Of a DNA stretch of 64,000 bases, positions 412-47,165 are shown in pieces. The stretch's first letter is position 1; every line of letters starts with the position of its first letter. The notes under the pieces are model-generated. The model was given only the letters and a program-made list of their open reading frames with translations. It was not told the DNA's origin and made no database searches. Source of the DNA: a virus; the IMG/VR virus record IMGVR_UViG_3300034374_012521, positions 32,001 to 96,000 of that record; one strand, 5' to 3'. The position numbers and the translations under genes were made by a program.

Positions 412-425
412 AATAAAATTATCTG

Positions 426-498
<73 letters not shown>

Positions 499-501
499 AA
501 T

Positions 502-687
502 TTATTTTAAAGCTTTTTTAGATCTCTCTGCTAACCAAACAGCTCCTTGAAGCTTAAATTCTTTCCAATTGTCAAATTCTTTGAGATCCTCTATGACACT
601 CTCAGGCAATAGGATAAATCCCTCGGGAGCAATTCCCTGGAACTTGTAATATCCCGAGTTTTCTATTTTTTCTTTAATGTTAGACAA
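502..687 (-). CDS. hypothetical protein
   Basis: 61-aa ORF filling the gap between two tRNAs. Confidence 0.55.
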   Translation of the reverse strand: MSNIKEKIENSGYYKFQGIAPEGFILLPESVIEDLKEFDNWKEFKLQGAVWLAERSKKALK

Positions 688-706
688 TTGAATTAATTTA
701 TTTTTG

Positions 707-780
707 GGCCGGAGGTGGGAATCGAACCCGGCGTCACGGTTAGTTTTAGCTAACTTGCTCTACCACTGAGCTACTCCGAC
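707..780 (-). tRNA. atypical/pseudo tRNA (6-nt anticodon loop CUAAAA, weak T-stem)
   Basis: Acceptor stem GTCGGAG/CTCCGGC, D-arm GCTC/GAGC and T-loop TTCGATT are intact; the anticodon arm is GTTAG-CTAAAA-CTAAC. Confidence 0.7.
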
Positions 781-782
781 TT

Positions 783-858
783 TGGAGCGGAAGACGGGAT
801 TCGAACCCGCGGCCCTCAGCTTGGAAGGCTGATGCTCTACCAACTGAGCTACTTCCGC
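783..858 (-). tRNA. tRNA-Gly(UCC), CCA encoded
   Basis: GCGGAAG...TCAGC CTTCCAA GCTGA...TCCA. Confidence 0.95.
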
Positions 859-863
859 TTTTG

Positions 864-937
864 CTCCCCCACCTGGGCTCGAACCAGGGACCTATTGATT
901 AACAGTCAACCGCTCTAACCAACTGAGCTATGGAGGA
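864..937 (-). tRNA. tRNA-Asn(GUU)
   Basis: TCCTCCA...GTTGA CTGTTAA TCAAT. Confidence 0.95.
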
Positions 938-981
938 ATATAAAGGTCCGGGCCCAAAAAGGGCCCTTTTGAAGACCTTAG

Positions 982-1054
982 TTGCGGGAGAAGGATTCGA
1001 ACCTCCGACCTCCAGGTTATGAGCCTGGCGAGCTACCTCTGCTACCATCCCGCG
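982..1054 (-). tRNA. tRNA-fMet(CAU)
   Basis: CGCGGGA acceptor with C1:A72 mismatch; CCAGG CTCATAA CCTGG. Confidence 0.9.
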
Positions 1055-1063
1055 ATATAATTA

Positions 1064-1168
1064 AAGGAAGGGAAATCTGGCGAGTACTTGTATTTGCCCG
1101 TTTCACACCGGTACCAAGCCTCCCGTCTTTTTCCAAATCCTTGCCTCTGTGAATAAGCACCCTTCCTT
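1064..1168 (-). ncRNA. putative structured ncRNA between tRNAs
   Basis: Perfect 9-bp terminal helix AAGGAAGGG/CCCTTCCTT with internal helices. Confidence 0.5.
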
Positions 1169-1170
1169 AG

Positions 1171-1242
1171 TTGCCCCTGCTGGACTCGAACCAACACTGA
1201 CGGAACCAAAATCCGCTGTCCTGCCAATTAGACGAAAGGGCA
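1171..1242 (-). tRNA. tRNA-Gln(UUG)
   Basis: TGCCCTT...GCGGA TTTTGGT TCCGT. Confidence 0.93.
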
Positions 1243-1248
1243 AGATTG

Positions 1249-1322
1249 TGGGCCCAGCAGGGCTCGAACCTGCGACCTACTGATTATGAGTCAGTTGCTC
1301 TAACCAACTGAGCTATGAGCCC
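1249..1322 (-). tRNA. tRNA-Ile2(CAU) (or elongator Met)
   Basis: GGGCTCA acceptor typical of Ile2; ACTGA CTCATAA TCAGT. Confidence 0.85.
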
Positions 1323-1328
1323 AAAAAA

Positions 1329-1380
1329 ACAGGATGCTTTTTAAATATTTGCTGTATCAAAAAGTTGCTGTATGCATCCT
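1329..1380 (-). ncRNA. stem-TACAGCAA RNA, copy A
   Basis: AGGATGC-ATACAGCAA...TACAGCAA...GCATCCT-GT. Confidence 0.65.
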
Positions 1381-1385
1381 TTTAG

Positions 1386-1467
1386 TACCGAGGGTCGGAC
1401 TCGAACCGACACACCATAAGGCGCTAGATCCTAAGTCTAGTGCGTCTACCAATTTCGCCACCCCGGC
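1386..1467 (-). tRNA. tRNA-Leu(UAG)
   Basis: CTAGA CTTAGGA TCTAG, long variable arm. Confidence 0.95.
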
Positions 1468-1661
1468 ATTTGCAGGATATCGCTTAACCTGCGGTGAGTG
1501 TTCCTTTCACCTTGTTCTCTTTAAGAAATACTTCGGGTCTTTCAGGGTTTCTGATAGATGATTCGTTTGTTATGTGATTACTCCAAACCCTTTTTCTTCA
1601 TTCTAACATCATCATCTATTACAGCTTCACTGTATCTCTTTCCGATACTACGATTTTTTTG

Positions 1662-1748
1662 CGGAGAGAGTGAGATTCGAACTCACGATACCGTTTCCAG
1701 TACACTACCTTTCCAGGGTAGCACAATCGACCGCTCTGTCATCTCTCC
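1662..1748 (-). tRNA. tRNA-Ser(GGA)
   Basis: CTACC CTGGAAA GGTAG, long variable arm. Confidence 0.95.
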
Positions 1749-1750
1749 TG

Positions 1751-1838
1751 TGGCGGAGAGGGAGGGATTCGAACCCCCGGTACGTTGCCGTACGCCAGTT
1801 TTCAAGACTGGAGCATTCGACCACTCTGCCACCTCTCC
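1751..1838 (-). tRNA. tRNA-Ser(UGA), CCA encoded
   Basis: CCAGT CTTGAAA ACTGG, long variable arm. Confidence 0.95.
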
Positions 1839-1844
1839 GTATTC

Positions 1845-1930
1845 GGTTTTGTTCCACATTAGCCCTACCACACAGTGGACATGGGTAGGATTTTGACTAA
1901 GGTGCTCTGAAGAGCTTTACACCGAAAACC
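1845..1930 (-). ncRNA. putative structured ncRNA between tRNAs
   Basis: Terminal GGTTTT/AAAACC closes hairpins GCTC-TTCA-GAGC and CCTACC...GGTAGG. Confidence 0.45.
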
Positions 1931-1937
1931 TGATCAG

Positions 1938-2010
1938 AGCCGCTGGAGGGACTTGAACCCCCGACAGGCTGATTACAAATCAGCTACTCTACCAGCTGAG
2001 TTACAACGGC
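1938..2010 (-). tRNA. tRNA-Thr(UGU)
   Basis: GCTGA TTTGTAA TCAGC. Confidence 0.95.
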
Positions 2011-2040: not shown

Positions 2041-2132
2041 TGTTTGATTATTTGTCTTTTTTACATCCAGCAGGATATTATGTTTCCATACAAAAACACA
2101 AATAATTACATTTTTTCTCCTCTCAGAGTTTG

Positions 2133-2547
2133 TGGAGCTGGTGGGATTCGAACCCACGTCCAGCTAGGCACACCCAGAGAATCTCATTCACAGGCTTAGG
2201 TCATTTTTCTAAATAACCAAAATAGAAAGGTTTCATATATGTGGGAATCAAACCTATCGAAAGTACCTGGTCTCAGAGTTGGTTTAGACGGGCTCTGACC
2301 TGTGACCCGCATACTCCAGATCAACCATCGGAAGATCTAGACTTTCGACTTTCTGTTCCTAGGGAGTCGACCCCCGGTGCTTAGGCTGCAAGAGCAACTT
2401 CAGCGGTTTCAACAGAACCTAGTCCTGCCAAAACGAAAAATGGATTTTCGCCATTTGAAGTGTTACATAGGTTATTAAAGAGTTTCCAATGCTAACTCTG
2501 CCTGCAATTCAAAGAACGTTCGCCTCCTGTCGATTCCAGTCAGCCCC
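2133..2547 (-). ncRNA. ssrA: tmRNA, predicted tag (A)GENPFFVLAGLGSVETAEVALAA
   Basis: 5' GGGGCTGACTGGAATCGAC; 3' GGTTCGAATCCCACCAGCTCCA; tag ORF 2452-2381 ends in ALAA-stop. Confidence 0.95.
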
Positions 2548-2559
2548 ATTTCTGTTCAG

Positions 2560-2567
2560 CAAATTTA
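2560..2567 (-). promoter_or_regulatory. Bacteroidota primary-sigma -7 element (TAnnTTTG)
   Basis: TAAATTTG 12 nt upstream of the tmRNA; no clear -33 TTTG. Confidence 0.45.
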
Positions 2568-2599
2568 ATCTTTGTAAGAGATTAAAAAAACTGAGATAT

Positions 2600-2633
2600 A
2601 AAAAAACCCAAATCTTTTGAGGGATTTGGGTTT
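2600..2633 (-). terminator. intrinsic terminator (putative attenuator)
   Basis: 11-bp stem AAACCCAAATC/GATTTGGGTTT followed by a U-tract. Confidence 0.85.
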
Positions 2634-2662
2634 AGATATATCTAGACTTCTTCTAAAACTAA

Positions 2663-2746
2663 CTATCTAAACCCGCAGGGTAAGTTATACCCTGTTGGGA
2701 ACGAACCCAACGTCCAAAGACACGATATTTGTTTAAATAGTTTCAT
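2663..2746 (-). CDS. putative leader peptide MKLFKQISCLWTLGSFPTGYNLPCGFR
   Basis: 27-codon ORF whose stop lies within an 11-nt arm complementary to the terminator 5' arm. Confidence 0.6.
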   Translation of the reverse strand: MKLFKQISCLWTLGSFPTGYNLPCGFR

Positions 2747-2834
2747 TCTAGATGAAGATTATGGTAATTATATATCAAAGGACAAAAAAGTTTCCGCTTA
2801 TTCCGCTGTTTTATTAAGAAAATGAAATCCCGTA

Positions 2835-3950
2835 TTATTTCGACTCCACAAAGTATCTAAGTTTAGAGAATTCCAAAAACCTGGATGTATCTATATCATA
2901 CTCATCATGAGACAGCATTCCATCACCATCCAAGGATTCTATCGAGAACAAGAATCTAATTTTACCTACTCTCCAGATAGCATCTGGAATTTTGTACCAA
3001 GCCCATCCGCCATGGCTTAGTGTGTTGCTTTCCTCCATCATTAATTCACTCCCACATAGAAGTTTGAATTTAATTCTAACTAATGAAAATGGAGAATCCG
3101 AGCTTAAATGTAGAAGTATTCTTATATCACTAATATTATCCTTATTTACGTATGGGGAACACACAGAAGTTGTGTAAAGAGTGTATTCGTTCTTGTTATA
3201 TGCTAGCTTATCAATATCCCAATTTTCCCCAATTGGACCTCCGAAAAAATGGTCCAACTCATCGTTGGACTTAAAGATGGAATTCTCCCTTCCTGTGTTA
3301 GCGATGGAAGTTATGAAATCCTCAAAAACCATGTTCGGATATTTAGATACGAAATCTCTATTTTTCCTAATATTGAGATTGGGTATAAGGGATCTAACCC
3401 GGGAATTCATTCTCAGTATAAAAAGATGACTGTATACCCAATGAGATCTTGGGACTGAGAAAAAAATAGAGTCTAGATCCTTTCGTAATAATTCTTCCAG
3501 GAAAGAATTAATTTTTTTGCCAAAATCCTTAGGGAATATAAAGTCAGTTTCCATATAAACACAAAAATCATACCCCTTAGCAAAAGAAGCACCCAAAGAG
3601 GGGATAAAGAGGGATACAATAGCAGGAGTAAAATCTATCCAGCCTTTATAATCATAATATAAGGTAGATCCAGAAGGACCCTCTGTATCAACCCACTTGT
3701 AGCTAGGTATGTTTTCTACTAACGGTACAATTTCAGGGTTGAGAATATTTGAATCTTTAAAAGCAGATGTGTTGGTGTCGTTATAGAGGTAAAGGTCCAC
3801 CTTGTTTTTTATGCTGTCTGGGCAATCAAAGTGTGTCATTAATGTAACATCCCACCCAATACTCTTAATGGAAGAGATTATCTCAAGAAGATCCTTTTGT
3901 TTTTCTTCAGTGCTTGGAAATGATGATAATATAAAGTTACAATCTATCAT
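2835..3950 (-). CDS. hypothetical protein, possibly glycosyltransferase-like
   Basis: 371 aa; 'YMETDF' DxD-like motif; glycan-gene neighbourhood. Confidence 0.5.
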   Translation of the reverse strand: MIDCNFILSSFPSTEEKQKDLLEIISSIKSIGWDVTLMTHFDCPDSIKNKVDLYLYNDTNTSAFKDSNILNPEIVPLVENIPSYKWVDTEGPSGSTLYYDYKGWIDFTPAIVSLFIPSLGASFAKGYDFCVYMETDFIFPKDFGKKINSFLEELLRKDLDSIFFSVPRSHWVYSHLFILRMNSRVRSLIPNLNIRKNRDFVSKYPNMVFEDFITSIANTGRENSIFKSNDELDHFFGGPIGENWDIDKLAYNKNEYTLYTTSVCSPYVNKDNISDIRILLHLSSDSPFSLVRIKFKLLCGSELMMEESNTLSHGGWAWYKIPDAIWRVGKIRFLFSIESLDGDGMLSHDEYDIDTSRFLEFSKLRYFVESK

Positions 3951-6319: not shown

Positions 6320-6504
6320 ACAGGATCGCTATTAGTATTATTCGGCTCTGCAGCTATATCTCTCTTTACGCCAATGAGAAGTTGACGTCGTGATTTTAGT
6401 TTTGAACCAGGTCACTGATCTCCGGGTCTTGTTAGTGAGTAAGCTTGCGCTCCACTACAACTAACTCTGCATCTAGTATAGAATAGGTTTGCTGTACCGA
6501 TCCT
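6320..6504 (-). ncRNA. stem-TACAGCAA RNA, copy B (long form, 185 nt)
   Basis: AGGATCG-GTACAGCAAA...CGATCCT-GT; internal helices CTATT/AATAG, TGCAG/CTGCA, GTTAGT/ACTAAC and a GCAA tetraloop hairpin. Confidence 0.7.
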
Positions 6505-6507
6505 TTC

Positions 6508-6571
6508 ACAGGTTTCATTCTCTTTTAACTTTGTATCTAATTAAGTATAAAGGGTTTGCTGTAAGAAACCT
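6508..6571 (-). ncRNA. stem-TACAGCAA RNA, copy C
   Basis: AGGTTTC-TTACAGCAAA...GAAACCT-GT. Confidence 0.65.
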
Positions 6572-6860: not shown

Positions 6861-8300
6861 TTAAATTATAATGTCTTTATACCTTTCAGAGAGGATAGTT
6901 TCGTTCATCACTTGGAGTGGTGAGATAATTTCACCCTTACAAATGCTTTTAAGAATTGCTGGTGAGAAACCACTTACCAAAGCTGTACCAGATTCAGTGA
7001 AAGAAACCGGCACGTTTCCACCTCGGGATTGAATATTCCAGTAGATGATGGAAGGCATTGTGTATCCTGCTTCAGCATACATCTCTCTGATCATTTCCTG
7101 TGCAGTAGGATTCCACTCTACAAGATCAGTTTTATTCCAATAAGACCTAGCCCTTGTCGCATTGTCGAATTCCATGTCGGAGAGGATCAAGATCTTCGTT
7201 GGCATTTCAGATGCAGGTACAGAATTTTTCACTGCCTGATCCAATATGTGTGAAAAGGTCTTTTGGAGATCTGTGTTCATACCCCAAGCAGCTCTAGATA
7301 ATTGCGAAAACCTCGACTTTAAATCACCCTTCAGTATTTGAATCTCTGGGTTAGCAGAGAAAGTTACAAAAGAGTCCTTAAACGCTCCCTCGTTTCTTTC
7401 AGAAATGTACATCCCTAAAGAGATTGCAACATCCAAGCAGTTAACATTAGAATTTCCACCAGCTGGTGTCACCATAGAACCTGAGGTGTCAACTACTGGA
7501 AGAATTCTTTCCTCGCTCCCCTCCGTGTAATCAGGAAGTGCTTTCCATTGCTCAGAGGCAAAGTCTGCATCTCCGTGTTTGAGAGTTTTGGTCACATCAT
7601 AAGGATAGACTGCAGCAGCATTTACTTTCTCCTCACCAGACCTTAGTTTCTCAAGATACAAATTATATCTCTCTGAATCATTTTTGTGAAATGCCTTGGT
7701 GTATCTTGCAGCTGCTACTGAAGGAAGCTTACCATATTCAATAGATTCCCAATCTTTAGCACACATAGCCTGCTCGACAACATTTGTGAGGCCGACCAGT
7801 GTCTTTCTATATTGCTTAGGCGTGAATCCTAAGAAATTTCTTAGCCTGTTTGCTACCGGACCCTTTCTAGGCATCCATTTAGCACAAAGCCCATTTTCGC
7901 TTTCGAGACCACTCTTTATTAGATCTAATGCAGGTGCTTCGAGCTTGGTGCCAATTAAAGTAAGCAAATCGTCCCACCTTCCATATTCTGGGATGAGATG
8001 TAGGTTTTTTCCTAGTATCTCTGGGTTGTCGCTTGCTAAATATGTAATAATATCCTTGAAGATCTGTCTTTCTCCTGCTCCGCCTCTGATGTCTCTTACC
8101 CAAAAAAGAATTCTCATGGCTGTAAGTGGATCCTCGTGAAACGCAAGTGAGAAGTTTGCAATAAGTCTTTGCTTATCCTGCCCTCTCATAGCACCAATCA
8201 TGAAGAATAAATCTACACAAGCATTCAAAGAAGATGAATTGGTTGTCATCCCATTTTCTGTGGTGGTGTTCTTGGTTCTAAGTGCGTCTACAAGTTTCAT
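6861..8300 (-). CDS. DUF2828 family protein (TROVE/Ro60-like helical domain plus C-terminal VWA)
   Basis: TTENG, RDIRGGAGER, YGRWDDL, AKWMPR, VWA MIDAS DTSGSM, ILSDMEFD, VSGFS. Confidence 0.85.
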   Translation of the reverse strand: MKLVDALRTKNTTTENGMTTNSSSLNACVDLFFMIGAMRGQDKQRLIANFSLAFHEDPLTAMRILFWVRDIRGGAGERQIFKDIITYLASDNPEILGKNLHLIPEYGRWDDLLTLIGTKLEAPALDLIKSGLESENGLCAKWMPRKGPVANRLRNFLGFTPKQYRKTLVGLTNVVEQAMCAKDWESIEYGKLPSVAAARYTKAFHKNDSERYNLYLEKLRSGEEKVNAAAVYPYDVTKTLKHGDADFASEQWKALPDYTEGSEERILPVVDTSGSMVTPAGGNSNVNCLDVAISLGMYISERNEGAFKDSFVTFSANPEIQILKGDLKSRFSQLSRAAWGMNTDLQKTFSHILDQAVKNSVPASEMPTKILILSDMEFDNATRARSYWNKTDLVEWNPTAQEMIREMYAEAGYTMPSIIYWNIQSRGGNVPVSFTESGTALVSGFSPAILKSICKGEIISPLQVMNETILSERYKDIII

Positions 8301-23850: not shown

Positions 23851-24930
23851 TTAAACATCATCTAGCTGGACAACGGCTAACTTAATAGATCTTTGCCCCT
23901 CGCTTTTAAGCTTATCTATTACCTCCTTGAGATCCCCAGAATTAGCAAAAACGATACAGCCAGCAGAATATGTGTTTACATTCCGTGAGGTTCCTCTTGA
24001 ACTAGCTCTGTGTATATTGATGCCGAATTTCCCGGTTTCTGTGTTACCAGGGGAAAAAGTTTTAAAGTCAATTTCTCCAGGCCCATTGACAGGTTCGTAG
24101 CGGTCAACAGTAATGTTACCGTTCTGTACAAAAGCTGGATATCCGTTGTGCTTTCCTATTTTGTAATCATAGACACCAGGTTGTACAATTGCTAACCCCT
24201 TAGGGTTAATAATATCTTTTTTGCCGTGTGTCATATACCAGTTCCTAAACTGTTGGACCATAAACATTGGCCCGGGTACAGTGGTTGCCTTGAAAGCCCA
24301 CACTTTATTATCCGACTCTGGAGACATTAGTACCAAAGCGTCAATAAAGTGGTTGTGAGATCTTTTCTTTTGGCTCAACTTATTCCTTAGGGCAACTAGT
24401 GTATATTTGTCCTTGTCGATCTTATTCCATTCTCCAGAAGATTCTAAAAATCCCTTGACCTTATTCCAAGTTAAACTATTAATTCCTCTATAGGTGTATG
24501 GAGAACTTGGCGGAAGTAAGGAAGCATTTGGTTCTATTGCTTCAAATGAGTTATCATTACTTCTAGCAATCTCTACGTTTCTTTCAACTCTTTCCCTTTC
24601 GGATCTGTTACCCCTGATATAAGATGCTATTTCATCAGATGTTTGTGGGGAATCTGAAACATTACCAGTCTCTATGTCAGTATTAGCTAATAGCCAATCC
24701 TCTAGCCCCCGTCCAACTTTAGTTGCCATTAAGAGGTCTAATCCGCTTATCTTACCTTTACCAAAAATTGTTCTCTTCTTTTGAGTTCCACCAGAATTTG
24801 TGGATTTGGAGGAAGATGAGGTTGGGGAATAAGCCTGATTAGTAGCTTGTTGTATAAACTCCCCAGCAGTTGAAGCTTCAGCCTCGTCTAATTTTTTCCT
24901 GAATTCACCAAAAGACTTTATCCTTCCCAT
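23851..24930 (-). CDS. putative virion protein with C-terminal L,D-transpeptidase (YkuD)-like domain
   Basis: GINIHRA...YSAGCIV; N-terminal IKSFGEF..LDEA. Confidence 0.6.
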   Translation of the reverse strand: MGRIKSFGEFRKKLDEAEASTAGEFIQQATNQAYSPTSSSSKSTNSGGTQKKRTIFGKGKISGLDLLMATKVGRGLEDWLLANTDIETGNVSDSPQTSDEIASYIRGNRSERERVERNVEIARSNDNSFEAIEPNASLLPPSSPYTYRGINSLTWNKVKGFLESSGEWNKIDKDKYTLVALRNKLSQKKRSHNHFIDALVLMSPESDNKVWAFKATTVPGPMFMVQQFRNWYMTHGKKDIINPKGLAIVQPGVYDYKIGKHNGYPAFVQNGNITVDRYEPVNGPGEIDFKTFSPGNTETGKFGINIHRASSRGTSRNVNTYSAGCIVFANSGDLKEVIDKLKSEGQRSIKLAVVQLDDV

Positions 24931-45251: not shown

Positions 45252-47165
45252 TCATCCCCTGACGCTTGTAATAAGGTCGTTGTAAAGATTAGATACCTCT
45301 TTTGGAACCATCTTTTTGAACTTAGAAAAGTCTTGGTCCTTCATAGCTTGTCTAACCTCAGTACCGCTCGTTACCCTTGGTGTTTCTACAATACCAAGGT
45401 CATCACTTATTTTGTCCTTAATATCAGACATCTTAACATAGTCTATCTGCTTAGTGTAGTCATCAATTCGGTCGGGGCCTGCACCAATTAACTTGGGATC
45501 ATATCCCATGTCTACTAGTCTTGCAATAGCAGACCCAAGAAGACCTCTTGTAGCAAGGACATATCCTTCAATCTCCTCGTTATTAGCAACTATTGCATCC
45601 ATATATCTTTTGATTGCCTCCTCATCAAATGGGGATTTTCCAGACTTGTTGTGTCCAGGATAAACCACAACAACAAAAGATGGGAGATCGTTTTTCTCCA
45701 TGAGATCCTTCGCCATCTTAAGATGTCCCTGGTGGAAAGGCTGGAATCTACCCATTATGACATTAACTGGTTTTCTTTCCTCCGTATCTTTCTCCTTGAG
45801 CATTTCTACCTCAGCCGGGATCTCCTCGTTATCAATGGTTTCTAACTTGCTGATAAATTCCTGATATGAGAAAAAAGGGTCTTCGCTGGAATCCGTATCG
45901 TCCTCTTCTTGCAGATATTCTACTGAAGGTAGGTTTTCCTTTCTAAATTCTCCAAAGCTAATAAATTTAGATTCGTTTACTTTCTTCTCTGGTTTTTTGA
46001 TGTAGTCCTTAATATCTTTAATCAAAATATTCATCTGATCCTTCATACCAGAAGTTATGATACCACCTGCTCTAGTTTTTATCTTCCTAAAGGAATTAAG
46101 AATGAGTTTAAATAAAGACTCAAATGAGTCATCCTTCTCAACATATTTAAGAACTCTTCTGTCTTTAATCTTTTCCTTATTCAGTCTGAATTCATCCCTC
46201 TTTAAGTAATCAGGCTCCTCAAAATCAGTACCCTTATACTTCTCCTCATATTCATCCAGGAATTTAACAAATACGTCTCCCATAAAGGAAATGTATCTCT
46301 CGTCTTCAGACTCACCTTCAACTTCAAATTCAGAAAGATCTTTTTCCAAAATGAAATTCATCACATCAAGCAATGTGATTCCAAGAAAATCCGAAGGCTT
46401 TTTACTCTTTTTGTCAGCAAACTTTTGCTTAGCTATTTCAGTGAATATAGGATCCACCATTTTGGCTAATACAGTATCACTATCTCCATCGAGCTCTCCA
46501 AATCTAAAAACTATACCCTCGACATCCTTATCTAGGTCGTCGTTAAGAGCAGTTTTAGTTAAATCCGGGTTTAGGGTCTTAATAACAAACCTAACAAAAG
46601 ATTGTGTTTTGAACCTTTCAACAAGATCTTTGAACGGCGTGTTCAAAAAATCCATAAGCTCAGATTTCTGATCTTCGTCCAACACCCCCTGGAAAACGAT
46701 TGGTGGTCTTTCAACTCCAATCAGATCTGCCCAATTATCCAATTCTTCCTTATCCTGGATAGTACTTTCTATCTTACCGCCAGTACCCATTTTATGGATA
46801 TAAGAGAGAATTAGATTATTCTTTGGTAATCTATCATACGAGATCTCTACAGGTTTGGTGTTTGAAAAATACTCAAGACCAAATCTCCATCCCCTAGGTA
46901 TTTTTTCCAATATGTTTGGTGGGAGTGATTCAATATACTGGATTGGCTTCTCATAATACTTCATGAGTGTTCTGTCCACAAGAGTTATAGGATTTCTTTG
47001 ATCCCTCCTATAAAACCTAAAATTACCAGATTCTTTATCTCTCTCAAAAGAGAAAGCTGATCCGTCCATCTTTTCATTGATCGTTACGTAACGATTAAAA
47101 AGCTGGTTGACAAAATCAGATCCCTTCTTATTATAAATGTCATATAAGTGATTTATTCCCGCCAT
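45252..47165 (-). CDS. RNA-ligase-like nucleotidyltransferase fused to an HxGH cytidylyltransferase-like domain
   Basis: INEKMDGS (motif I), EYF, EGIV, AKMV; C-terminal GRFQPFHQGH, SGTEVR. Confidence 0.75.
   Translation of the reverse strand: MAGINHLYDIYNKKGSDFVNQLFNRYVTINEKMDGSAFSFERDKESGNFRFYRRDQRNPITLVDRTLMKYYEKPIQYIESLPPNILEKIPRGWRFGLEYFSNTKPVEISYDRLPKNNLILSYIHKMGTGGKIESTIQDKEELDNWADLIGVERPPIVFQGVLDEDQKSELMDFLNTPFKDLVERFKTQSFVRFVIKTLNPDLTKTALNDDLDKDVEGIVFRFGELDGDSDTVLAKMVDPIFTEIAKQKFADKKSKKPSDFLGITLLDVMNFILEKDLSEFEVEGESEDERYISFMGDVFVKFLDEYEEKYKGTDFEEPDYLKRDEFRLNKEKIKDRRVLKYVEKDDSFESLFKLILNSFRKIKTRAGGIITSGMKDQMNILIKDIKDYIKKPEKKVNESKFISFGEFRKENLPSVEYLQEEDDTDSSEDPFFSYQEFISKLETIDNEEIPAEVEMLKEKDTEERKPVNVIMGRFQPFHQGHLKMAKDLMEKNDLPSFVVVVYPGHNKSGKSPFDEEAIKRYMDAIVANNEEIEGYVLATRGLLGSAIARLVDMGYDPKLIGAGPDRIDDYTKQIDYVKMSDIKDKISDDLGIVETPRVTSGTEVRQAMKDQDFSKFKKMVPKEVSNLYNDLITSVRG

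What the first reader, a model, noticed from the sequence alone, without database searches (positions are those of the whole stretch)
2600..2776. Leader-peptide attenuator upstream of the phage tmRNA/tRNA cluster
Seen: on the minus strand, GATATATA (2769-2776) precedes a 27-codon ORF (2746-2663). Its last codons and stop form GGGTTTAGATA (2674-2664), a perfect 11-nt complement of TATCTAAACCC (2638-2628), which overlaps 6 nt of the 5' arm of a strong terminator (2633-2600). The two hairpins are mutually exclusive. The leader has no run of one amino acid but samples many codons: four different Leu codons plus ATA, CAA, TCG, ACG/ACA, CCA, GGG, AAC and TGG, many read by tRNAs encoded downstream. 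Established: this is the logic of ribosome-coupled attenuation. Inference: a ribosome reaching the stop masks the antiterminator and causes termination, whereas stalling or translation shut-off (for example by host anticodon nucleases) permits read-through into tmRNA and tRNAs, a general translation-stress sensor. Caveat: possible separate promoters at 2560-2567 and about 2060-2087 could give basal expression.
Basis: partly seen in the sequence, partly recalled or inferred. Interest (0 to 1): 0.82.

Follow-up and report, generated by a model that had tools for sequence, protein, structure and literature searches.

The report
Leader-peptide attenuator before phage tmRNA/tRNAs
An uncultured large phage and its relatives place a tiny, probably translated reading frame wired to an either/or RNA hairpin switch in front of their tmRNA and tRNA genes, so they probably make more of these RNAs when ribosomes read slowly.

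Summary
It missed a third pairing. The transcript's 5' end, including the AUG and codons 2-6, pairs with the last codons and the following strand (-24.4 kcal/mol). This gives a complete 1:2 / 2:3 / 3:4 attenuator.

I found the element in 13 of 13 related loci that carry the tmRNA behind the same upstream gene, and in 0 of 2 that lack it. It also occurs in two more distant phage lineages, L026 and L036. In L026, three positions of region 2 changed together with both of its alternative partners.

The small frame stays open in all five lineages, and its substitutions look like those of a coding sequence. It sits behind a strand-specific promoter-like motif at the same distance as the phage's real genes.

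Its codons touch 11 of 13, 12 of 12 and 13 of 15 tRNA species of three phages. That is more than gene windows or shuffles give. In L036 the figure is 15 of 17, which is not significant.

In four of nine sequences only 14 nt separate the terminator from the tmRNA. One metatranscriptome contig spans leader, terminator and tmRNA.

Translation and regulation are inferred, not shown.

This scan noted the same design earlier on other DNA. Three literature searches found no published case.

The parts
2785..2794 (-). GAAACTTTTT, conserved upstream box of the promoter-like region
   Evidence: Present in all 8 distinct related leaders. It is also kept in L009/L010, where another gene follows. It occurs 2 times on the gene strand of the 118-kb record. 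A promoter role is inferred.
2768..2776 (-). GATATATAA, promoter-like (-10-like) motif 21 nt before the uORF AUG
   Evidence: 12 copies on the gene strand and 0 on the other strand of the record. Several lie 16-28 nt before gene starts, for example window 24957 before the ATG at 24930, and 22430 before 22405. Conserved in L008, L011, L013, L017, L019, L020, L022 and L026.
2731..2757 (-). 5' strand of the anti-antiterminator: CUUC.AUCUAGAAU (outer stem, includes AUG 2746-2744) and region 1 AACUAUUUAAAC (2742-2731, codons 2-6)
   Evidence: MFE folds. The duplex with 2676-2640 is -24.4 kcal/mol; shuffled 5' strands average -10.5, and 0 of 1000 were as good. The same architecture appears with a different sequence in L026 (-18.8 kcal/mol, P 0.001).
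2663..2746 (-). uORF, 27 codons plus TAG
   Evidence: It is open in five lineages at 26-28 and 46 codons. Synonymous codon changes number 4 of 10, 4 of 12 and 4 of 9 in this frame, against 0-2 in the other frames.
2661..2674 (-). Region 2, GGGUUUAGAUAGUU (last codons and stop); pairs either with region 1 or with region 3
   Evidence: Positions 7-9 are A,G,A here and G,U,G in L026, with matching changes in both partner strands.
2647..2660 (-). 3' strand of the outer stem (A GUUUUAGA A GAAG); in the antiterminator state it forms a small hairpin with UCUAGA
2628..2638 (-). Region 3, UAUCUAAACCC, the 3' strand of the antiterminator; overlaps 6 nt of the terminator's 5' arm
   Evidence: The antiterminator hairpin 2674-2628 is -16.6 kcal/mol, against -13.0 for the terminator hairpin.
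2600..2633 (-). Intrinsic terminator: AAACCCAAAUC / 8-nt loop / GAUUUGGGUUU plus T run
   Evidence: Nearly the same hairpin occurs in all relatives, including L026 and L036.
2548..2599 (-). 52-nt spacer with TAAATTTG (2567-2560), a possible separate promoter for the tmRNA
   Evidence: The spacer is 52-60 nt with a TAnnTTTG box in 5 of 9 sequences, and 14 nt without a box in the other 4. The motif shows no strand bias in the genome (63 against 72 copies), so promoter function is a guess.
2130..2547 (-). tmRNA gene, the first regulated gene
   Evidence: Rfam RF00023, 88 bits. ARAGORN reads the tag GENPFFVLAGLGSV(E/K)TAEVALAA in three relatives.
425..2010 (-). Array of 11 tRNA genes; 5 more lie beyond the window start on the same strand
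   Evidence: That the array is co-transcribed with the tmRNA is inferred from arrangement only.

Best explanation
This is a ribosome-coupled (leader-peptide) transcription attenuator at the head of the phage's tmRNA/tRNA block.

Transcription probably starts a few bases after GATATATAA. The short leader holds a 27-codon frame and three mutually exclusive pairings:
- 1:2 plus an outer stem. The 5' end, AUG and codons 2-6 pair with the last codons and the strand behind them.
- 2:3, the antiterminator.
- 3:4, the terminator.

Predicted outcomes:
- If no ribosome loads, or the ribosome runs to the stop and covers region 2, the terminator forms. The product is a leader RNA of about 160 nt.
- If a ribosome is held anywhere from about codon 2 to codon 20, the 5' strand is blocked or cut off from region 2. 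Region 2 then pairs with region 3, and RNA polymerase reads on into the tmRNA and tRNA genes.

The frame has no run of one codon. Instead it holds about one codon for most tRNA species the phage encodes. It would therefore report slow decoding of exactly those codons, for example after tRNA depletion or cleavage. The induced tRNAs and tmRNA would relieve the stall, giving negative feedback.

Shown: the sequence layout, its conservation and covariation, the coding-like substitution pattern, the codon/tRNA match, and one RNA-library contig that spans the terminator.

Inferred: the transcription start, translation of the frame, ribosome-polymerase coupling, the direction of regulation and the physiological trigger.
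For: 1. Architecture. The antiterminator hairpin is -15.2 to -16.6 kcal/mol, against -12.5 to -16.3 for the terminator, in 5 sequences. With the RNA 5' of a ribosome at codon 8 or 14 removed, and the 3' arm not yet made, the antiterminator is the MFE in 5 of 5 sequences. The long 5'-3' helix is -16.4 to -24.4 kcal/mol; 0, 1, 6 and 1 of 1000 shuffles were as good in the four clades.

2. Covariation. Region 2 positions 7-9 are A,G,A in the window and G,U,G in L026. Region 3 changes from U,C,U to C,A,C, and region 1 from U,U,U to C,A,C. The L008 and L011 clades carry A-to-G changes that keep G-U pairs with both partners, and a matched one-base shortening of both strands of 1:2.

3. Co-occurrence. 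Of 15 loci holding a homologue of the upstream gene, 13 carry the tmRNA (12 by Rfam, plus L021 by sequence). All 13 have the leader. The 2 loci without a tmRNA (L009, L010) lack it. L036 has the same terminator, a 46-codon frame whose last codons copy the terminator's 3' arm, and 17 tRNAs but no tmRNA.

4. Coding signs. The frame is open in 5 lineages. Shuffles stay open in 19%, 29%, 25% and 8% of trials. Third-position changes are 8 of 13, 10 of 19 and 7 of 15. Synonymous codon changes are 4 of 10, 4 of 12 and 4 of 9, against 0-2 in the other frames. The single L011/L013 difference in the block is synonymous. The AUG sits 20-21 nt behind GATATATAA, as in real genes. Only 10 of 98 long ORFs have an SD-like motif, against a 12.6% background, so a missing SD is normal here.

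5. Codon sampling, scored as tRNA species touched:
- G000: 11 of 13; gene-window mean 6.3, P 0.0014; shuffle P 0.023.
- G001: 12 of 12; mean 5.5, 0 of 20000 windows; shuffle P 0.0002.
- G002: 13 of 15; mean 8.9, P 0.0086; shuffle P 0.048.
Frame 0 beats frames 1 and 2 in all three.

6. There are only 14 nt, with no TAnnTTTG box, between the T run and the tmRNA in L017, L019, L020 and L022.

7. In one of four metatranscriptome runs laid, a 510-nt contig covers window 2229-2738. That runs from codon 3 of the frame through the terminator into the tmRNA, with 4 differences.
Against: - There is no experimental evidence of translation, termination or regulation.
- Only five lineages are known, and three of them share the 5' half of the frame, so the coding and covariation statistics are thin.
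- Equilibrium folding of all RNA 3' of a stalled ribosome gives a clean switch only in L011. In L008, L017 and L026 the terminator mostly stays in the MFE. The model therefore rests on kinetic order.
- In the ribosome-free snapshot, L008, L011, L017 and L026 fold into the antiterminator rather than 1:2. The default state may thus differ between relatives.
- Codon sampling is not significant in L036: 15 of 17, P 0.14 against gene windows and 0.21 against shuffles.
- The fraction of cognate codons is not significant in G002 (P 0.13 and 0.09).
- The codon idea was formed on these same data. The tRNA sets come from records estimated 26-43% complete.
- The cross-matches G002 uORF with the G000 set, G002 uORF with the G001 set, and G001 uORF with the G002 set also exceed the null (P 0.009-0.025). 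Only G000 uORF with the G002 set does not (P 0.14).
- A possible separate tmRNA promoter exists in 5 of 9 sequences. RNA contigs of two other runs cover the tmRNA alone.
- The bridging contig comes from an RNA library that may contain DNA. A contig cannot show a single transcript or its ends.
Confidence: 0.6

Rival explanations
1. This is a translation-independent RNA switch or processing signal. The alternative hairpins would respond to a protein, an RNA or a small molecule, or the long helix would be an RNase III-type site. The open frame would be a by-product.
For: The fold is very stable (z -7.07) and the AUG is buried in the long helix. There is no SD. All three frames meet a stop within or just after region 2 in the window, so an ORF ending there is partly automatic. 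The frame relative to GGGTTT differs in L026.
Against: The interior between regions 1 and 2 keeps neither sequence nor structure: three hairpins in the window, one irregular hairpin in L011, and another fold in L008. A ligand or protein pocket is therefore unlikely. No Rfam family reaches its threshold; the best match is NsiR1, 20.1 bits against a cut-off of 39. The frame is open in five lineages, with a third-position and synonymous bias. SD-less starts are the rule in this phage.
Confidence: 0.15
2. This is an independent small gene or small RNA with its own promoter and terminator. The terminator only insulates, and the tmRNA and tRNAs are made from promoters of their own.
For: A TAnnTTTG box lies in the 52-60-nt spacer in 5 of 9 sequences. 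RNA contigs in runs X16 and X18 cover only the tmRNA, up to window 2537. The N-terminal part of the peptide is conserved (QISCxWT).
Against: It does not explain the conserved, covarying complementarity of region 2 to both region 1 and region 3. It does not explain the 14-nt spacers in 4 of 9 sequences, or the leader's strict co-occurrence with the RNA genes (13 of 13 against 0 of 2). One RNA-library contig spans the terminator. The peptides match no PHROG family at E below 0.05.
Confidence: 0.13
3. This is an arrest-peptide variant of the attenuator. The conserved residues (W-T, then P) would stall the ribosome by their sequence, perhaps in answer to a small molecule as in TnaC. Codon supply would play no part.
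For: TGGAC (Trp-Thr) is in frame in 4 clades at different distances from the AUG. A Pro follows it 1-5 codons later.
Against: L036 has W-S-D and no following Pro nearby. The rest of the peptide is variable. The match between codons and tRNA species would be left unexplained.
Confidence: 0.07
4. This is a Y-RNA-like or tRNA-like structured RNA, with a long stem closing a four-way junction, that partners the Ro60/TROVE-like gene at 6861-8300.
For: The window's fold shows a long stem of four helices (28 pairs) closing three hairpins, one of them T-arm-like (GUUGGG UUCGUU CCCAAC). A DUF2828+DUF7788 gene lies 4 kb upstream.
Against: The junction is not conserved in L008, L011 or L026. The loop is not a T-loop. 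There is no YrlA or tRNA hit at 2647-2757 at E up to 5, and ARAGORN finds nothing there.
Confidence: 0.03

Closest known systems
Classical leader-peptide transcription attenuators of enterobacterial amino-acid operons (trpL, hisL, leuL, thrL, ilvL, pheL). Recalled from general knowledge; the pheL paper PMC3082878 was seen in search listings only.
   Same: A short translated leader, the 1:2 / 2:3 / 3:4 alternative pairings, an intrinsic terminator before the regulated genes, and termination both when the ribosome reaches the stop and when none loads.
   Different: There is no run of one regulatory codon. The frame instead samples many codons matched to the phage's tRNAs. The regulated genes are RNA genes (tmRNA, tRNAs) of a phage. 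The start has no SD and lies about 14 nt from the presumed 5' end, inside the anti-antiterminator. No Rfam leader family matches.
whiB7/wblC uORF attenuator of actinobacteria (PMC10274678, passages read)
   Same: A longer, compositionally diverse uORF precedes a Rho-independent terminator. Stalling gives antitermination. Which amino-acid shortages are sensed depends on which residues the uORF contains, so it acts as a general translation-stress sensor.
   Different: It controls a transcription-factor gene in a bacterium, the uORF is alanine-rich, and there is no sequence relationship. Here the output is the decoding machinery itself, which closes a direct feedback loop.
toiL uORF of topAI-yjhQ in E. 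coli (PMC12121999, title and abstract in the listing only)
   Same: A regulatory uORF senses ribosome stalling from several causes.
   Different: As far as I recall it works through Rho-dependent termination and translation control, not an intrinsic terminator. It is a bacterial toxin-antitoxin operon.
T-box riboswitches (recalled)
   Same: They tune expression of translation-related genes to tRNA status through a terminator/antiterminator choice.
   Different: T-boxes bind uncharged tRNA directly, with no translation. No T-box match was found here, and no conserved specifier or T-box sequence was seen.

Membership tests
Leader-peptide (ribosome-mediated) transcription attenuator, as a class | Short ORF in the leader, upstream of the regulated genes, conserved as an open frame | tested here: met
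   27 codons in the window. The frame is open in five lineages and shows a coding-like substitution pattern.
Leader-peptide (ribosome-mediated) transcription attenuator, as a class | Intrinsic terminator between the leader ORF and the regulated genes | tested here: met
   11-bp stem plus T run at 2633-2600, conserved in all relatives.
Leader-peptide (ribosome-mediated) transcription attenuator, as a class | An antiterminator that excludes the terminator, placed so that a ribosome at the stop codon covers its 5' strand | tested here: met
   2674-2664 pairs with 2638-2628. The stop codon lies inside region 2, or 6-8 nt after it in L026. Pairing is kept with compensatory changes. Ribosome coverage is inferred from footprint size.
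Leader-peptide (ribosome-mediated) transcription attenuator, as a class | An anti-antiterminator (1:2) involving the early part of the ORF | tested here: met
   The long 5'-3' helix is significant against shuffles in 4 of 4 clades. It is the MFE in the window, L011 and L026, but not in L008/L017.
Leader-peptide (ribosome-mediated) transcription attenuator, as a class | Regulatory codons that tie stalling to the product of the regulated genes | tested here: inconclusive
   There is no codon run. The tRNA-species match is above null in 3 lineages but not in L036. The hypothesis was formed on the same data.
Leader-peptide (ribosome-mediated) transcription attenuator, as a class | Translation of the leader changes read-through | not testable with these tools
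   Needs reporters, Ribo-seq or Term-seq. One bridging RNA-library contig is the only hint.
Rfam leader families (Trp, His, Leu, Thr leaders) and T-box | Match to the covariance model | tested here: not met
   None is listed for 2597-2760 at E up to 5.
Y RNA / YrlA | Conserved long stem plus tRNA-like module; match to RF02553 | tested here: not met
   YrlA hits fall only on tRNA genes. The junction is not conserved.

The most novel reading that the evidence does not exclude
The leader is a decoding-speed meter written in the phage's own tRNA repertoire, and its codon set changes as the repertoire changes. L026 lost Leu codons and gained Ala, Asp, Lys and AGT-Ser codons along with the matching tRNAs. 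The phage would therefore switch on its tmRNA and tRNAs only when the host pool for exactly those codons fails, for example after anticodon-nuclease defence or host shut-off, and switch them off again once its own tRNAs restore speed. That would be a self-correcting supply loop for translation RNAs, a kind of control not described for tRNA or tmRNA genes.
Probability: 0.35. Interest if true: 0.85.

Novelty: new variant of a known kind. Interest (0 to 1): 0.74.

Why it matters
How phages time and dose their own tRNAs and tmRNA is largely unknown. Why phages carry them at all is still debated: codon compensation or escape from tRNA-targeting defences (PMC10264068, listing only).

A leader that meters decoding of the very codons the phage tRNAs read would give these genes a condition-dependent role, and a clear, mutable test object of about 160 nt. 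It would also extend leader-peptide attenuation in three directions:
- from amino-acid and resistance genes to RNA genes of the translation apparatus;
- to viruses;
- to SD-less initiation.

Three full-text searches found no published case. Subscription journals and supplements were not searchable.

Tried and rejected
- blastn of 2100-2900 against the phage records gave no match.
- The upstream 371-aa protein alone found no viral locus. Its profile found 1 viral and 14 metagenome loci.
- An exact 20-mer of the leader gave no viral hit.
- Loci found through the carbamoyltransferase carry no tmRNA or tRNA. L004, 92% identical, ends before the element.
- The 19-mer of region 3 found only the L008 record and L024, a chance match inside coding sequence.
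- L003 and L025 are phage tmRNAs without this leader, so the leader is not general to phage tmRNAs.
- The Y-RNA/tRNA-like idea was dropped because the junction is not conserved.
- MAFFT alignments A2 and A3 misplace region 2 of L026. I therefore did not use the count of structure pairs, fold_alignment or a covariance model. I made an anchored per-position table instead. For L011 and L013 that table picked an alternative 11-bp register with the 5' UTR; the codon 3-6 register is.
- Equilibrium folding 3' of a stalled ribosome was not decisive.
- The constrained fold was uninformative, because the constraint was met by another pairing.
- PHROGs gave nothing for the two peptides or for the upstream protein. 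One search failed on my wrong coordinates and was corrected.
- No contig of the four RNA runs covers 2761-3100. This proves nothing.
- TAnnTTTG shows no strand bias, so I make no claim about the host from it.
- Structure prediction, complex prediction and the atlas were not needed.
Full report
**1. The observation**

On the minus strand, a 371-aa gene ends at 2835. A 287-nt intergenic stretch follows, then a tmRNA gene at 2547-2130 (Rfam RF00023, 88 bits, E 5e-34; ARAGORN missed it). Eleven tRNA genes lie at 2010-425.

- GATATATA at 2776-2769.
- The ORF 2746..2663, 27 aa, stop TAG.
- GGGTTTAGATA at 2674-2664 and its perfect complement TATCTAAACCC at 2638-2628.
- The terminator at 2633-2600, an 11-bp stem plus T run. 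It shares 6 nt with that complement.
- The codons named.

The 201 nt at 2790-2590 fold at -64.7 kcal/mol, against -36.1 +/- 4.1 for 200 shuffles (z -7.07, none as good).

**2.

The predicted fold is not just two competing hairpins. The first bases of the presumed transcript pair with the last codons and the strand behind them. The 5' strand (2757-2731) is CUUC.AUCUAGAAU, which contains the AUG, followed by AACUAUUUAAAC (codons 2-6). It pairs with GUUUAGAUAGUU.GUUUUAGA.GAAG at 2672-2647.

The duplex is -24.4 kcal/mol. Shuffled 5' strands average -10.5, and 0 of 1000 do as well.

Region 2 therefore has two partners. One is region 1 upstream (anti-antiterminator). The other is region 3 downstream (antiterminator), and region 3 overlaps the terminator. 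That is the full 1:2 / 2:3 / 3:4 scheme of a classical attenuator, with the start codon buried in the 'off' fold.

**3. Where the window comes from, and its relatives**

The window is bases 32001-96000 of a 118-kb IMG/VR virus record estimated 43% complete. The record encodes ribonucleotide reductase, helicases, a topoisomerase-like protein, an RNA-ligase-like protein and a Ro60/TROVE-like DUF2828 protein.

A profile of the upstream protein brought in 15 loci.
- Thirteen carry the tmRNA behind the gene: 12 by Rfam, plus L021, which is cut inside the tmRNA. All 13 have the leader.
- The two loci without tmRNA or tRNAs (L009, L010) lack it. They keep only the GAAACTTTTT box before another gene.

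The 13 loci reduce to eight distinct leader sequences in three clades. A tmRNA 5'-end pattern added L026, a fourth and much more divergent clade. The terminator pattern added L036, a fifth lineage with 17 tRNAs and no tmRNA.

Two other phage tmRNAs, in L003 and L025, have no such leader.

**4. The RNA switch is conserved with compensation**

Invariant in the three close clades:
- the promoter-like boxes;
- AAUCUUCAUCUA;
- AUGAAAC;
- CAAAUAUCGUG;
- UGGAC;
- GGGUUUAG;
- everything from AGAAGAAG to the end of region 3 (AGAAGAAGUCUAGAUAUAUCUAAACCC) and both terminator arms apart from one A/G change in L017/L019. The terminator loop varies.

The informative changes:
- The L008 and L011 clades read GGGUUUAGGUG in region 2. 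The two A-to-G changes keep G-U pairs with region 3 and with region 1.
- Region 1 and region 2 are each one base shorter in those clades (CUAUUU/AGAUAG becomes CAUUU/AGGUG).
- In L026, positions 7-9 of region 2 are G,U,G instead of A,G,A. Region 3 reads C,A,C instead of U,C,U, and region 1 reads C,A,C instead of U,U,U. That is three two-sided changes in each alternative helix.
- The outer stem of L026 has a different sequence (AAUUC..AUCAAAAA / UUUUUGAA..GAAUU) but the same place and span. Its duplex is -18.8 kcal/mol, with 1 of 1000 shuffles as good.

The long helix is significant in all four clades (0, 1, 6 and 1 of 1000).

By contrast, the interior between regions 1 and 2 folds differently in each clade. 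This argues against a ligand- or protein-binding pocket, and against my first idea of a Y-RNA-like or tRNA-like four-way junction. Rfam has nothing there at E up to 5 except a sub-threshold NsiR1 match over the terminator.

In L036 the last codons, GAUUUGGGAUGA, copy the terminator's 3' arm and pair with its 5' arm. This is the same logic built differently.

**5. Energetics**

The antiterminator hairpin is -15.2 to -16.6 kcal/mol. The terminator hairpin is -12.5 to -16.3.

I removed the RNA up to a ribosome held at codon 8 or 14 and stopped the transcript before the terminator's 3' arm. The antiterminator is then the MFE in 5 of 5 sequences. In L036 it disappears when the ribosome sits on the last codon.

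Without a ribosome, the window's RNA folds into the long helix both at that snapshot (-44.3) and at full length with the terminator (-57.1).

Two results cut the other way:
- The ribosome-free snapshot of L008, L011, L017 and L026 shows the antiterminator instead.
- Equilibrium folding of all RNA 3' of a stalled ribosome gives a clean codon-dependent switch only in L011.

The model thus depends on the order of synthesis and on coupling, as it does for trp. I could not test either.

**6. Is the frame translated?**

Nothing here shows it directly. The indirect signs are as follows.

(a) The frame is open in five lineages, at 27, 26, 27, 28 and 46 codons. Dinucleotide shuffles stay open that long in 19%, 29%, 25% and 8% of trials. 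In the window all three frames hit a stop in or just after region 2, so the position of the stop alone says little. In L026 the frame relative to GGGUUU is shifted by one.

(b) I compared the three close clades over the ungapped first 19 codons. Changes fall on third positions in 8 of 13, 10 of 19 and 7 of 15 cases. Changed codons are synonymous in 4 of 10, 4 of 12 and 4 of 9 cases in this frame, against 0-2 in the other two frames. The only L011/L013 difference in that block is synonymous. L019 has gained a second, in-frame AUG. The three comparisons are not independent.

(c) GATATATAA occurs 12 times on the gene strand of the record and never on the other strand. It lies 16-28 nt before several gene starts. 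The uORF AUG lies 20-21 nt behind it in four clades. The small frame is therefore placed like a first cistron.

(d) Only 10 of 98 long ORFs have an SD-like motif, against a 12.6% background, and upstream regions are 45% A. The absence of an SD is thus no argument against translation.

**7. Codon sampling**

The whole record has 16 tRNA genes. I left out the two CAT tRNAs and one tRNA with a six-base anticodon loop, and used plain wobble rules.

| Phage (record) | tRNA species touched | Mean in random gene windows | P, gene windows | P, dinucleotide shuffles |
|---|---|---|---|---|
| G000 (window) | 11 of 13, in 26 codons | 6.3 | 0.0014 | 0.023 |
| G001 (record of L008) | 12 of 12 | 5.5 | 0 of 20000 | 0.0002 |
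| G002 (record of L026) | 13 of 15 | 8.9 | 0.0086 | 0.048 |
| L036 | 15 of 17 | 13.0 | 0.14 | 0.21 |

Further points:
- Frame 0 beats frames 1 and 2 in G000, G001 and G002.
- The L011 frame touches 13 of 13 species of G000's set (0 of 20000). By my own reading, it touches all 8 non-Met species identified on the short L013 contig.
- L026 fits the idea qualitatively. Its record shows Ala, Asp, Lys, Glu, Phe(GAA) and Ser(GCT) tRNAs and no Leu tRNA. Its frame has GCA, GAT, AAA/AAG, TTT and AGT codons and no Leu codon.

Against the idea:
- L036 is not significant.
- The fraction of cognate codons is not significant in G002 (P 0.13 and 0.09).
- Cross-matches between phages are also high.
- The tRNA sets come from incomplete records, and the array of G002 is cut by the contig end.
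- The idea was conceived on these same sequences.

I rate the codon-sampling part as likely but unproven.

**8. Does transcription pass the terminator?**

In the window, L008, L011, L013 and L026, a 52-60-nt spacer lies between the T run and the tmRNA. In L017, L019, L020 and L022 the spacer is 14 nt with no such box. Short-spacer forms occur inside two different leader clades.

In those phages I see no other place for a tmRNA promoter. I did not exclude one overlapping the leader.

I laid four metatranscriptome runs.
- One gave a 510-nt contig covering window 2229-2738 with 4 differences. It runs from codon 3 of the frame through the terminator and spacer into the tmRNA.
- Two other runs gave contigs of the tmRNA alone, ending at 2537.

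A contig from an RNA library can stem from contaminating DNA and shows neither ends nor a single molecule. This is a hint of read-through, no more.

**9. Mechanism proposed**

The promoter-like motif leads to a short 5' end, and a ribosome loads before the 3' strand of the long helix is made.
- A ribosome that runs to the stop covers region 2, the terminator forms, and a leader RNA of about 160 nt is released.
- A ribosome delayed between about codon 2 and codon 20 keeps the 5' strand away from region 2. Region 2 pairs with region 3 as soon as region 3 emerges, and polymerase reads into the tmRNA and tRNA genes.
- With no ribosome at all, the long helix and the terminator form.

The frame mostly uses codons read by the phage's own tRNAs. 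These include rare ones: TCG 5.8, ACG 3.8 and TGC 2.4 per thousand. The induced tRNAs would therefore speed up the leader's own translation and shut the switch, giving negative feedback.

The trigger is speculation: host tRNA shortage, cleavage by anticodon nucleases, or general elongation stress. The RNA-ligase-like gene and the tRNA with an altered anticodon loop fit a contest over tRNAs but prove nothing.

**10. Comparison with known systems**

It works like the classical amino-acid leader attenuators and like the whiB7 uORF attenuator. In whiB7, stalling in a compositionally diverse uORF gives antitermination, and the uORF's residues decide which shortages are sensed (PMC10274678, passages read).

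It belongs to no curated RNA family. It differs in four respects: its target is RNA genes of the translation apparatus, its owner is a phage, it has no codon run, and its start has no SD and is buried in the helix.

Three full-text searches found no description of leader-peptide control of phage tRNA or tmRNA genes. The library lacks most subscription journals, and supplements were closed.

Earlier agents of this scan reported the same design on other genomes. At least 12 genomes hold such notes, and one shares sequence words with this window. I took from those notes the lead to the whiB7 papers and the TACAGCAA motif. I tested the claims afresh on this DNA.

**11. Verdict**

- Observation: confirmed.
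- Interpretation: partly supported.
- Most likely: a ribosome-coupled attenuator gating the tmRNA/tRNA block (0.6).
- Main rivals: a translation-independent RNA switch (0.15), and an insulated small gene with separately transcribed RNA genes (0.13).
- Novelty: a new variant of a known kind.

Noticed in passing
window 706-780 (-): This tRNA has a six-base anticodon loop (CUAAAA), and ARAGORN reads a two-base anticodon. Its counterpart in the L008 record (L027 5543-5619) is called tRNA-Phe with anticodon AAA. L011, L013, L020 and L022 have the odd form. This may relate to anticodon-loop changes that evade tRNA-targeting defences (PMC10264068, listing only).
   Followed up: partly
window 1349-1372 (-) and 6489-6563 (-): TACAGCAA occurs 8 times in the window, against 1.7 expected (0 of 100 shuffles reach 8). 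Two copies sit inside an AGGATGC...GCATCCT stem between tRNA-Leu and tRNA-Met. Two more lie just downstream of the Ro60/TROVE-like DUF2828+DUF7788 gene at 6861-8300.
   Followed up: partly
whole record G000, gene strand; e.g. window 24957, 22430, 57927, 44370, 31187, 30351: GATATATAA occurs 12 times on the gene strand and 0 times on the other. It is often 16-28 nt before a start codon. It is probably a phage promoter element, possibly for a phage-specific polymerase or sigma factor.
   Followed up: partly
window 2548-2599 (-) and the same place in L017, L019, L020, L022: The terminator-to-tmRNA spacer has two forms: 52-60 nt with a TAnnTTTG box, and 14 nt without one. Each form occurs inside different leader clades, which suggests repeated loss, gain or recombination.
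   Followed up: partly
window 2130-2547 (-): ARAGORN does not call this tmRNA, although Rfam scores it at 88 bits. In relatives ARAGORN reads an unusually long tag, GENPFFVLAGLGSV(E/K)TAEVALAA.
   Followed up: no
window 45252-47165 (-): A 637-aa protein has weak RNA-ligase (PF09414, just under the cut-off) and cytidylyltransferase-like matches. It may be an RNA-repair function that fits a tRNA-damage theme.
   Followed up: no
L009 / L010, just after the upstream-gene homologue: In these two loci the tmRNA/tRNA block and the leader are absent and another gene follows, yet the GGAAAGAAACTTTTTGT box is kept.
   Followed up: no
whole record G000: Only 10 of 98 long ORFs have an SD-like motif, and upstream regions are A-rich. 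This is the pattern known from Bacteroidota and their phages (recalled); the host was not determined.
   Followed up: no
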